From: Phoronis australis
Lineage: Eukaryota > Animalia > Phoronida
DNA length: 42,185 nt
NCBI GenBank assembly: GCA_002633005.1
Contig: NMRA01000352.1
Location: forward strand, 296,170 to 338,354
Direction of reading: 5' to 3'
Below are positions 3,277-9,124 of this stretch, in pieces. The position numbers and the translations under genes were made by a program. Position 1 is the first letter of the stretch. Each line of letters begins with the position of its first letter. The notes under the pieces were generated by a model, which saw only the letters and a program-made list of their open reading frames with translations, did not search any database and had not been told where the DNA came from.

Positions 3277-3334
3277 TCACTGGGGTGGTTGCTCGTCTTC
3301 TGCGTTTCTCCCTGAGGCGGCGTTTTCAATGTTT
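3277..3334 (-). CDS. Double-Got1 gene, putative terminal exon (NIENAASGRNAEDEQPPQ*)
   Basis: Strong acceptor tttcactttgctttatttccAG, phase 2. TGA at 3279-3277; a GTGAGT donor at 3280 is an alternative ending. Confidence 0.6.
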
Positions 3335-6300: not shown

Positions 6301-9124
6301 ATTATTTTCGGTTCAAAACTTAACCATCTTGACTTATCCACTCGCACCGCGTTTTCTTCATTGTCCTCGAGTCGGGAAAGAGTTTATCAGTCAAGTTTAT
6401 CCAGCTTTCTCCCGTCGGAATTGTAGCTCACAGCACAGCAATGATACTTCGTTGGCATTAGGAGGACGAATAGTGTAATGCAGCCCAAAATGTGCAAAGA
6501 ATATTGGTACGACAGCAACAAAGAGCGTGTGAAACTCTAGTGGATCCGCGAAAAACGAAAGTGGCAGACGCACATTGCGGCGAGATTCGAGTGTCGCTTT
6601 ATAATCTGGGAGGGCACTATTGTATCAAAAACCTTATTTTTACCAGAAATGTAGTAACTACAACAATACTACTGTCCACGATTGTCAGCCGAAAACCCAC
6701 GTTGGTTCAGTCTCCACCTAACTGACCTGGAAGCACGAAAAATGTTACAGTCCGACTGACGAGGTCTAACGTGACTCAGGGACGAGTGATATTTAGCAAG
6801 CGTTCAACAACACTCGTCATTTGTGCTTGATACATGAAGAAGTTACACCTCCGTCTCCCGAAGACCTGCGTCAGTGGTCATGCCATGCTCACAGGACATT
6901 TCCTCTATACGCGCCGTAGCTCAGATTATCACCTCCTTCCTCGCCTTCACACGTTTTCATAAATTTATGGTACACGAAGAATTCAAGAGTCCTAGGCATG
7001 CTCATTTCGTGATATTTTTTGTTTTCGTGATTTGCCCATTCTGAATACAGCATAGCTCATTTTACTGGTTGTGGAACATCACAGAGTCAAGACACTGTTG
7101 GCTGGACATTTGATTCTGCACCTAGCATCCTTATTAACTCTATACAGTCCACTTCTAAATGCAAATCAACTAACAAGACAACTGCACAACTTACCTGCAT
7201 GAAATGTTGAGTCCACGCAAACCGAAGTAAATGCCAAACTCTACCCAATTCAAGAAAATCAATAACACGCCACCGACGCAGTACACGGAGGTTAAAATCT
7301 TATTCGTTGGACACAAAAGTTGAAAAGTAATCTCAGTGGCCATTGCAAATATAGTCCCAAGGTTAAGCAATATCTGAAACAAACGAACCTTAACTGACAA
7401 AAAATACTCAAACTTTCACATTTAAACAAAAGACAGAATAAGTTTATCTAACTTACAGTTCTGAATTTCTGATAAACCGCAAATAAGCTACAGAAAACAT
7501 CATTTTATCAGCTAGTTTAGCCCTGATTTCGACGGTATTGATCAATTGACGCCTTCACTGGAGTGTGTTCAGTGAGGAAAATTTTAAGCACTTAAAAGTG
7601 CTTAAGACGACCATTTACTTCATTTTGATTTTATGTTCCTACATTGCCAGCATCATTAAACTTTCCTATAGCACCACATAGGGGAGAGTGGGGTAAATCG
7701 GCACCCTAAACTTTAAAGATCCATTACCCAAAAATTATACAATTTATATACAATGAATTAATCATGTTCAAAGAGCTCACCTTGTAGTTTATAAAAAACT
7801 TAATTAGTAGAATTAAAATTGCATCGTCTTGGGTCAAGACAGATTTGACTTTTTAAGGGGTGCTGGGCCGTTTTACCCTACCTTGCGGTTAAGACGGTCA
7901 CTGCAGTTGGGTAAAACGGCCCTGCTACCTACGCTTTTAGCGAAATACACTGCAACTATGGGAAAACACTACCTCTAAGGACTTTCATGTCCAATCTGTG
8001 ACAAGGTTATGAGTTTTTAGTTGATTCCTGCCTTTAACTTGGGAGATTGGCGGCAATGATTGATTAGCAGGTCACAAAACGAGACTGGTTAAAATCATCA
8101 AAACAAGGTTTAGAATTCGTTTCAAATGTTGTCCGATAGTGATTGTAAGTGTTTCAAAACTCGACAGACAAAATTGGTGATTTTAAGCACTTCAATAATT
8201 TGGATAAATCTCATGAGGTTCTGTCCTACCAACAAAAAGAACAATGACTGCACTTGATTCACTTCGCCTGTTCCATAGGGTCAAGCGGTTAAGACACCTC
8301 ATGATTGCTTCTCGATGGCGATTTCCAACTTACAAAGCAATCAGATGTTTTAGTCGGTTGAGATCCACAATATGATGAAAAATTTTAATCTCTAAGCGTG
8401 TTGTTCAGGGCGTTAAGAAGTGAAGGAGTGTCAAAACATCCTTTTTTAACGGAGTTGGCCAGACCCCCCTCCTAAATTCGAACGTTCCAAGTCAATGGCA
8501 TTTATCTTCTTTTGAGGGGGTAAGAAACCCACTTCTATAACAGCAAAAGAACGTATGAGAGATTTGTACGGGAATTTTTTTGTGATTTCAATGATTTGGA
8601 TGAATTGCGCCTTTATACAGGAACATTTCATTCTTTTTTAAATGAAAAATGTTAACTTTTTATTACTAAGTCCATCTTTCCGGTGGCAATGAGCCACTGT
8701 GAACCATCGATTCTGTTTGTTTTTTCAATTTCGTACCAGGGTTTTTTCAAAGAGAAATTTTTACTTTTATCACTAATTAAAAATTTGCCTCCGAAACTTA
8801 TGGATTTTTTGGGTTTTGGTCCAACAAATGCTGAGTTTCTGTAGCATATTGATAAACACAGTCACAAGAGCGGTCGGTAGGAGTACTTACACATCCAGAT
8901 ATCTTTAAAAGGCTCATACACAGATAAATGGAGAGGAACATCCCATACATTGTGAACGCAAGACACGTAATAAACGATGCTGAAAAATAAATAAAATTGT
9001 ATAAAGTGAGATCAGTCGTACAGTAGTGAATAAGAACGAAAAACAAAAGTCGAAGTACATTTGAACCTGAAATGTGTACTCGTGGTCAGATTAAAAATAC
9101 AGACTTACTCCAAGGCTTGCCCAT
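3277..9124 (-). CDS. Divergent Got1-family paralog with two tandem Got1 modules (predicted about 8 TM, about 221 aa), 7 coding exons
   Basis: Exons 9109-9124, 8891-8979, 7195-7373, 5859-5908, 5093-5184, 4235-4416 and 3277-3334 are all GT-AG, phase-compatible and give 666 nt with no internal stop. Exon pairs of 89/179 nt and 92/182 nt mirror GOLT1 exons 2/3 (phases 1-0-2). One exon ends [13 protein letters not shown] exactly like GOLT1 exon 2. The first and last exons are less certain. Confidence 0.8.
3795..4105. repeat. Purine-rich low-complexity tract (A/G runs)
   Basis: Degenerate GAAAA/GGAAA runs that explain three spurious Lys-rich or Phe-rich ORFs; intronic in the double-Got1 gene. Confidence 0.8.
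4235..4416 (-). CDS. Double-Got1 gene, module 2, GOLT1 exon-3-like
   Basis: Acceptor gcatttcAG, VLLLTGVAFTLKTERVLR...LGILL....SVIGM..., donor AG|GTAAGG, 182 nt, phase 0->2. Confidence 0.85.
4460..4717. mobile_element. Short non-autonomous element with terminal hairpin (possibly Helentron/HINE-like)
   Basis: Hairpin CCATGCGACG-ggcGTAAgcg-CGTCGCATGG (4478-4507), a second ATGCGACG copy near 4692, and a ...CTAGTTT end. Confidence 0.3.
5093..5184 (-). CDS. Double-Got1 gene, module 2, GOLT1 exon-2-like
   Basis: Acceptor gttattgc[38 protein letters not shown], 92 nt. Confidence 0.88.
5444..5525. mobile_element. hAT-like MITE terminus
   Basis: Repeated TGGCGA/TCGCCA subterminal motifs ending CGAGCACTG. 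Confidence 0.35.
5859..5908 (-). CDS. Double-Got1 gene, linker exon (AKIKGHINSINSPPRR)
   Basis: Acceptor cttatttcAG, donor GTAAGT, 50 nt, phase 2->1, exactly bridging the two modules. Confidence 0.7.
7195..7373 (-). CDS. Double-Got1 gene, module 1, GOLT1 exon-3-like
   Basis: Acceptor gtttgtttcAG, ILLNLGTIFAMATEITFQ...KI..S....GGVLLIFLNW...G, donor AG|GTAAGT, 179 nt, phase 0->2. Confidence 0.8.
7681..8300. mobile_element. Tc1/mariner-pogo-like terminal fragment
   Basis: TA|GGGGAGAGTGGGGTAAA terminus and internal GGTAAAACGG/CGGTTAAGAC repeats; partner TIR not found. Confidence 0.3.
8891..8979 (-). CDS. Double-Got1 gene, module 1, GOLT1 exon-2-like
   Basis: Acceptor ttatttatttttcAG, SFITCLAFTMYGMFLSIYLCMSLLKISGC, donor GTAAGT, phase 1->0. 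Confidence 0.72.
9109..9124 (-). CDS. Double-Got1 gene, putative first coding exon (MGKPW)
   Basis: ataATGG context (A at -3, G at +4), in-frame stop upstream, donor A|GTAAGT in phase 1 as the next exon requires. Confidence 0.55.

What the first reader, a model, noticed from the sequence alone, without database searches (positions are those of the whole stretch)
3277..9124. Hidden 7-exon gene encoding a tandem 'double-Got1' membrane protein
Seen in sequence: seven GT-AG exons splice in phase into a stop-free ORF of about 221 aa that the ORF track does not show as a unit. It holds two copies of the GOLT1 exon-2/exon-3 unit (89+179 nt and 92+182 nt, phases 1-0-2, as in the GOLT1 gene 22 kb away), joined by a 50-nt linker exon whose 2->1 phase fits exactly. 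Protein: [221 protein letters not shown]. Established knowledge: Got1/Sft2 proteins are single-module four-TM ER-Golgi trafficking factors. Inference: this is a covalent Got1 pseudo-dimer of about 8 TM. I do not know this architecture from the family, and it could be a lineage-specific trafficking factor or a neofunctionalised transporter-like protein.
Basis: partly seen in the sequence, partly recalled or inferred. Interest (0 to 1): 0.9.

Follow-up and report, generated by a model that had tools for sequence, protein, structure and literature searches.

The report
Expressed two-module Got1 membrane protein gene
This animal transcribes and splices a gene that strings two highly diverged copies of the membrane core of the ER-to-Golgi trafficking protein Got1 into one reading frame, which likely gives a built-in Got1 pair that would tune, rather than replace, the ordinary Got1 gene next door.

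Summary
In three RNA runs, stranded reads cross introns 2-5, including both sides of the 50-nt linker exon. Depth arithmetic supports intron 6. The proposed exon 1 (9109-9124) has no reads. Instead, 10 reads join exon 2 to an exon ending at 14765 through a 5,785-nt GC-AG intron, giving a 242-aa frame. A Got1 profile built here finds two domains (11.4 and 35.2 bits); at most 1 of 2,000 shuffles scores as high. Third codon positions are near saturation while frame and hydrophobicity persist, which points to selection. Both modules lack Got1's C-terminal helices and keep only 12 and 10 of 36 conserved residues. No orthologue turned up. The only other tandem among 181 homologues has near-identical repeats and is probably an artefact. 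Likely a covalent, asymmetric Got1 pair in the early secretory pathway; function untested. The scan's earlier notes held nothing similar.

The parts
14765..14843 (-). Corrected first coding exon (79 coding nt, 26 codons + 1 nt; ATG at 14843, in-frame stop five codons upstream). Its 5' end is not mapped; an acceptor-like site ending near 14890 leaves room for a further non-coding exon.
   Evidence: Loose-end consensus of 7 X1 and 3 X3 reads matches 29 of 30 nt here and nowhere else in the window
8980..14764 (-). Intron 1, 5,785 nt, GC-AG type (donor CAG|GCGAGT), phase 1
9109..9124 (-).
   Evidence: zero depth at 9005-9460 in X1-X3
8891..8979 (-). Exon 2 (89 nt): module 1, predicted helix 1 and first half of helix 2; counterpart of GOLT1 exon 2, the most diverged exon
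7195..7373 (-). Exon 3 (179 nt): module 1, predicted helices 2b-4; 17 of 59 residues identical to GOLT1 exon 3
5859..5908 (-). Exon 4 (50 nt, phase 2 to 1): 17-residue basic linker (5 K/R, 0 D/E), spliced to both modules
   Evidence: only candidate of its kind between exons 3 and 5 in my scan
5093..5184 (-). Exon 5 (92 nt): module 2, predicted helix 1 and first half of helix 2; keeps the RGLLAIGN motif; 11 of 30 residues identical to GOLT1 exon 2
4235..4416 (-). Exon 6 (182 nt): module 2, predicted helices 2b-4; 17 of 59 residues identical to GOLT1 exon 3
3277..3334 (-). Exon 7 coding part (58 nt with stop): polar 20-residue tail with no likeness seen to GOLT1's C-terminal helices
   Evidence: read depth about 2 in X1 and X2
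31642..38079 (+). Canonical GOLT1 gene, 141 aa (31642-31666, 34081-34172, 34810-34991, 37106-37187, 38038-38079); probable source of the duplicated exon pair
   Evidence: (PF04178, E 4.6e-9 for exon 3); splicing not checked by RNA
20765..24387 (-). Two exons of TMEM237, the gene between the double-Got1 gene and GOLT1 (full extent not mapped)
   Evidence: PF15383 hits E 1.1e-7 and 3.4e-5

Best explanation
The locus is a spliced, weakly expressed gene whose reading frame holds two diverged Got1 cores joined by a short basic linker, and its product likely folds as a covalent, asymmetric Got1 pair in ER/Golgi membranes that would modulate the ordinary GOLT1 complex rather than replace it. Shown: exon chain, splicing of introns 1-5, open 242-aa frame, Got1 homology of both halves, loss of the C-terminal helices. 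Inferred: the GOLT1 exon-2/exon-3 cassette (phase 1 to 2) was duplicated long ago, and a phase 2-to-1 linker exon chained two copies. With four helices per core, both cores would face the same way and the linker would lie in the cytosol. The chain would then pre-assemble the Got1-Got1 contact seen between separate human GOT1 proteins. Having lost the tail and about two thirds of the conserved residues, it would act as a specialised or competing partner, as GOT1A does towards GOT1B.
For: Junction reads in three runs, all exon depth on one strand, and linker depth (2-7x) equal to module depth. No skip of either module was listed, although phases would allow in-frame single-module forms of 134-136 aa. 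Got1 profile from 110 homologues: two domains, residues 31-119 and 138-226; module 1 matched or beaten by 0-1 of 2,000 shuffles in four settings, module 2 by 0 of 2,000. Atlas: exon 6 first hit Got1, score 0.90, 204 shared features, 27 of 30 hits. Profile-profile E 2.2e-5. Codon position 2 is the most conserved in all three exon-B comparisons, e.g. 26/41/19 of 59 for module 2 against GOLT1. Neutral decay to this divergence left an open frame in 53 and 78 of 2,000 runs, and an open frame with this hydrophobicity in 0 and 2 of 2,000. An AlphaFold model of a canonical Got1 (pLDDT 79) puts four long helices in residues 6-98, the part encoded by the duplicated exons. Published: GOT1A co-precipitates with itself and GOT1B, and the paralogues act oppositely (bioRxiv 10.1101/2023.12.12.569033, passages).
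Against: Family-conserved residues are kept little or no better than variable ones: 12 of 36 versus 5 of 23 in module 1, and 10 of 36 versus 7 of 23 in module 2. Selection thus seems to act on hydrophobicity, not on Got1-specific surfaces. The two modules do not keep complementary sets (overlap 5, expected 3.3). Module-1 helix 4 is weakly hydrophobic; if it fails to span the membrane, the parallel topology breaks. Module-1 exon 3 gave no Got1 hit in the Atlas, and single exons gave no Pfam hit. No orthologue was found, so constraint cannot be measured between species. Expression is low, roughly 2 FPKM by my arithmetic, and translation is not shown.
Confidence: 0.45

Rival explanations
1. The protein is real but has left Got1 biology: the two cores serve as a generic 7-8-helix membrane scaffold with a new job (channel-, transporter- or anchor-like).
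For: Conserved Got1 residues are not preferentially kept, and the tail is gone. Hydrophobic character is kept. Doubling of small helical units is a known route to transporters (recalled).
Against: No pore-lining pattern or transporter motif was seen. Atlas hits of exon 3 to sugar-nucleotide and EamA clusters are all under 0.9 with low family shares. The Got1 model matches no solved transporter beyond generic four-helix bundles, best Z 7.5. Module 2 keeps RGLLAIGN and VIGM.
Confidence: 0.27
2. Only module 2 works as a Got1-like unit; module 1 is a degenerate membrane anchor or spacer of three or four helices, so there is no pseudo-dimer.
For: Module 2 scores 35 bits against 11 for module 1. Module-1 exon 2 shares only 2-4 of 29 residues with GOLT1 without gaps. 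Its helix 4 has KD 0.78.
Against: Module-1 exon 3 is as close to GOLT1 as module-2 exon 6 (17 of 59 each) and keeps W82, G73-G74, K64 and E53-x-T55-F56, which module 2 largely lost.
Confidence: 0.15
3. A transcribed but functionless relic of a GOLT1 duplication.
For: Low expression, extreme divergence, no orthologue.
Against: A 729-nt open frame over seven exons, six canonical splice pairs and a stop in the last exon. Codon-position pattern and neutral simulation (substitutions only, no indels, so lenient) argue against it.
Confidence: 0.1
4. Two separate single-module genes or pseudogenes that were joined only on paper.
For: Phases would allow each module to be spliced alone.
Against: Both linker junctions are read in all three runs, with read arms of 51-54 nt that cover the whole 50-nt exon.
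Confidence: 0.03

Closest known systems
GOLT1B / Got1p (Pfam PF04178, Got1/Sft2-like family)
   Same: Both modules match a Got1 profile; same exon pair with phases 1-0-2; four hydrophobic segments per unit; motifs [17 protein letters not shown] and VIGM partly kept.
   Different: Two cores in one chain; about 29-34% identity to the neighbouring GOLT1; C-terminal helices (residues 100-132, ten conserved positions) absent from both; FFFQ and YGF motifs lost; new 26-residue N-terminus; does not end in the valine found in 61 of 91 full-length homologues.
Vertebrate GOT1A/GOT1B pair
   Same: A diverged paralogue beside a conserved one; GOT1A binds itself and GOT1B and acts oppositely (bioRxiv 10.1101/2023.12.12.569033, passages).
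   Different: GOT1A is a single module, 54% identical to GOT1B by that paper; here the partner pair is fused and far more diverged.
P0001, Labeo rohita 346-aa model with three Got1 cores
   Same: Same exon-2/exon-3 unit repeated in one predicted chain.
   Different: Repeats are 90-91 of 91 residues identical, so probably an assembly or annotation artefact or a very recent duplication; no RNA check was made.
Sft2 / SFT2D proteins
   Same: Same Pfam family, tetra-spanning, partly redundant with Got1 in yeast (PMC10559307, passages).
   Different: Single module; function needs its soluble N-terminus. No direct comparison with Sft2 sequences was run here.

Membership tests
Got1/Sft2 (PF04178) | Sequence match to the family profile | tested here: met
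   Own profile of 110 Got1 homologues: two domains, 11.4 and 35.2 bits, above 1,999-2,000 of 2,000 shuffles; Atlas Got1 hit for exon 6
Got1/Sft2 (PF04178) | Pfam gathering score (24.6 bits) | tested here: inconclusive
   No hit for four single exons or their flanked frames; the 30-aa exon 2 of canonical GOLT1 also gave none; the spliced product was not scanned
Got1/Sft2 (PF04178) | Four membrane helices per unit | tested here: inconclusive
   Helices mapped from a Got1 model: seven of eight have KD 1.3-2.0, module-1 helix 4 has 0.78; no TM predictor or full-length model was run
GOLT1 orthologue group | Exon 2/3 with intron phases 1-0-2 | tested here: met
   compared with the neighbouring GOLT1
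GOLT1 orthologue group | Near-invariant core residues | tested here: not met
   12 of 36 and 10 of 36 kept in the exon-3 region; the homologue set is mostly animal, so 'invariant' is relative to it
GOLT1 orthologue group | C-terminal helical region (residues 100-132) | tested here: not met
   Absent from both modules
GOLT1 orthologue group | Single module of about 140 aa | tested here: not met
   242 aa, two modules; 180 of 181 retrieved homologues are not tandem
GOLT1 orthologue group | ER/Golgi cycling and association with YIPF5 or COPII | not testable with these tools
   needs cell biology

The most novel reading that the evidence does not exclude
A natural single-chain Got1 dimer: the first gene in which evolution has fused two Got1 cores. 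It would fix the stoichiometry and parallel orientation of the unsolved Got1 oligomer, and act as a lineage-specific regulator of ER export.
Probability: 0.4. Interest if true: 0.7.

Novelty: new variant of a known kind. Interest (0 to 1): 0.55.

Why it matters
Got1 proteins are conserved across eukaryotes, yet no sequence relative was found among solved structures and their molecular action is open. They self-associate, but the stoichiometry is not known from the passages I read. A natural two-core chain with a 17-residue linker constrains how two cores can sit together, and offers a ready construct for testing whether Got1 works as a pair. It also shows a small trafficking gene giving rise to a new multi-span membrane protein by exon-pair duplication, invisible to the protein collections searched. 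The weight is limited because it is known from one genome and has no functional data.

Tried and rejected
No whole genome is held, so no genome-wide paralogue search. Orthologue searches were blank: exon 3+6 profile against 5.8 billion proteins, 0 of 990 candidates; against 1.84 billion representatives, 0 at E<=0.001 (canonical Got1 did not reach that cut-off either, so sensitivity is low); JGI metagenomes, 0 of 594 pattern matches. The tandem survey covered proteins of 260 aa or more (62 hits) plus the best 120 of 439, so diverged tandems of 190-260 aa could be missed. No indexed RNA holder was listed; X4 contigs covered only intronic repeats. Complex prediction of a Got1 homodimer was not available: no verdict. 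Fold searches of the Got1 model gave only generic helical bundles. The tree cannot place either module, so descent from this particular GOLT1 rests on proximity and exon structure. Complementary retention of conserved residues was tested and rejected. Alignment A2 misplaced exon 2 and was not used; A5 was not used. Literature searches showed no tandem Got1 in listings; two primary papers were not held, and no supplements were read. Earlier scan notes: nothing relevant.

Full report
Observation. All have AG/GT ends, phases run 1,0,2,1,0,2, and the joined 666 nt give a stop-free 221-aa frame. A canonical GOLT1 gene lies on the plus strand at 31642-38079 (PF04178 for its exon 3), with TMEM237 exons in between. 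The organism is an animal. Its GOLT1 is up to about 80% identical to animal homologues and lies nearest to mollusc and annelid rows in a tree, without support.

RNA. Three raw-read RNA runs with the same species label were available; 18-19% of each was read. On exon 2, 15 of 18 reads were at least 99% alike, so the runs hold this organism. Junction reads in X1/X2/X3 were 2/2/3 for intron 2, 2/2/6 for intron 3, 4/2/1 for intron 4 (plus 5 in X3 with a silent change at 5860) and 2/5/1 for intron 5. Read arms of 51-54 nt at the linker junctions cover the whole 50-nt exon. Exon-only bins show depth on one strand. Intron 6 was not listed, but depth on the 24 nt flanking each side equals about two reads in X1 and X2 and none in X3. 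Depth is 2-7x on exons 2-5, the linker included, or about 2 FPKM by rough arithmetic. Phases would allow in-frame single-module isoforms of 134-136 aa; none was listed, though rare ones would fall under the 3-read floor.

Correction of the 5' end. The proposed exon 1 has zero depth. Seven of 8 X1 reads and 3 of 7 X3 reads on exon 2 continue into a sequence that occurs once in the window, at 14765 onward. The donor is CAG|GCGAGT, so intron 1 is a 5,785-nt GC-AG intron. An ATG at 14843, preceded by an in-frame stop, gives a 729-nt frame and a 242-aa product. The 5' end of this exon is unmapped.

Homology. BLASTP against the neighbouring GOLT1 gives 29% over 80 columns for module 1 and 34% over 96 for module 2; the modules are 29% alike (pairwise E 4e-8, 2e-14, 4e-5). 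A profile from 110 homologues finds exactly two domains (11.4 and 35.2 bits). With global and local shuffles, 0-1 of 2,000 reach module 1's score and 0 of 2,000 reach module 2's. The Atlas places exon 6 with Got1 clusters (0.90, 204 features; recognition value under the tool's threshold) but not exon 3. Pfam hit no single exon.

Anatomy. An AlphaFold model of a mollusc Got1 (pLDDT 79, pTM 0.62) shows helices 6-27, 32-50, 52-59, 62-80 and 83-98, then three short C-terminal helices. The duplicated exon pair encodes the first set, and both modules lack the second, with its ten conserved positions. Mapped helices have KD 1.3-2.0 except module-1 helix 4 (0.78). The linker has five K/R and no acid, which fits a cytosolic loop by the positive-inside rule (established knowledge; that Got1's ends face the cytosol is recalled). 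No solved structure is related by sequence, and fold searches gave only generic bundles.

Selection. Nucleotide identity to GOLT1 by codon position is 30/34/25 (module 1) and 26/41/19 (module 2) of 59 in the long exon, and 21/31/15 between modules. Neutral substitution to the same protein divergence kept an open frame in 53 and 78 of 2,000 runs, and an open frame with equal hydrophobicity in 0 and 2. The duplication is therefore old and the frame maintained. Against a conserved Got1 function, family-conserved residues are kept little or no better than variable ones (12 of 36 vs 5 of 23; 10 of 36 vs 7 of 23), and the two modules do not keep complementary sets.

Distribution. No orthologue was found, with the sensitivity limits given under Tried and rejected. 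Among 181 retrieved Got1 proteins one is tandem: a carp model whose three cores are 90-91 of 91 identical. Nine literature searches showed no tandem Got1 in their listings; most subscription papers are not held and supplements were not read. The scan's own notes held nothing similar.

Mechanism. [quoted passage not shown] Yeast Got1p cycles between ER and Golgi (PMC6682643). Rice GOT1B binds SEC23 (PMC10543891). Sft2 is predicted to contact the Sed5 SNARE through its membrane helices (bioRxiv 10.1101/2021.09.30.462231) and overlaps with Got1 in function (PMC10559307). Since Got1 proteins associate, a chain with two parallel cores most simply pre-forms that contact. Loss of the tail and of most conserved residues makes it more likely a specialised or competing partner than a second GOLT1 (0.45). 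Rivals are a new, non-Got1 membrane function (0.27), one working module with a degenerate anchor (0.15), a relic (0.10) and separate genes (0.03). No model of the full protein or of a Got1 dimer could be made, so the packing of the modules stays open.

Verdict. A real, expressed gene with a corrected N-terminus: Got1-derived, not a GOLT1 orthologue, with a two-module architecture that I did not find credibly elsewhere. New variant of a known kind; interest 0.55.

Noticed in passing
window 20765-24387 and probably up to about 29800, minus strand: TMEM237 exons (Pfam PF15383) lie between the double-Got1 gene and GOLT1, on the same strand as the former and head-to-head with the latter; read-through from TMEM237 was not tested.
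   Followed up: partly
window 34810-34991: The canonical GOLT1 carries a private one-codon insertion before GWP; 119 of 120 homologues have the shorter spacing (one gave no match), as do both modules.
   Followed up: yes
rows P0130-P0149: 14 of 62 long Got1-containing predictions, all from bdelloid rotifers (Adineta, Rotaria), carry Got1 and a cation-efflux (PF01545, named SLC30A9) domain in one chain; may be a real fusion or a shared gene-model error.
   Followed up: no
P0001: Labeo rohita model with three near-identical Got1 cores (90-91 of 91 residues), probably an artefact.
   Followed up: partly
window 30438-30665 and 30906-31133: Exact 228-nt direct repeat with an N at 30905, probably an assembly duplication just upstream of GOLT1.
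   Followed up: no
window 17835-18209: Array of 20-nt units in two opposed orientations.
   Followed up: no
window about 4425-4722 and 7927-8080: Intronic repeats that draw many 90-95% alike reads on both strands, i.e. transcribed copies elsewhere in the genome.
   Followed up: no
window 14773 and 5860: Reads differ from the window at two coding positions: 14773 (Arg to Leu, all 10 loose-end reads) and 5860 (silent, 5 reads of X3); probably alleles.
   Followed up: partly
window 41138-41545, minus strand: 135-aa open frame without a Pfam hit above cut-off; resembles the end of a LINE-type ORF by recall only.
   Followed up: no
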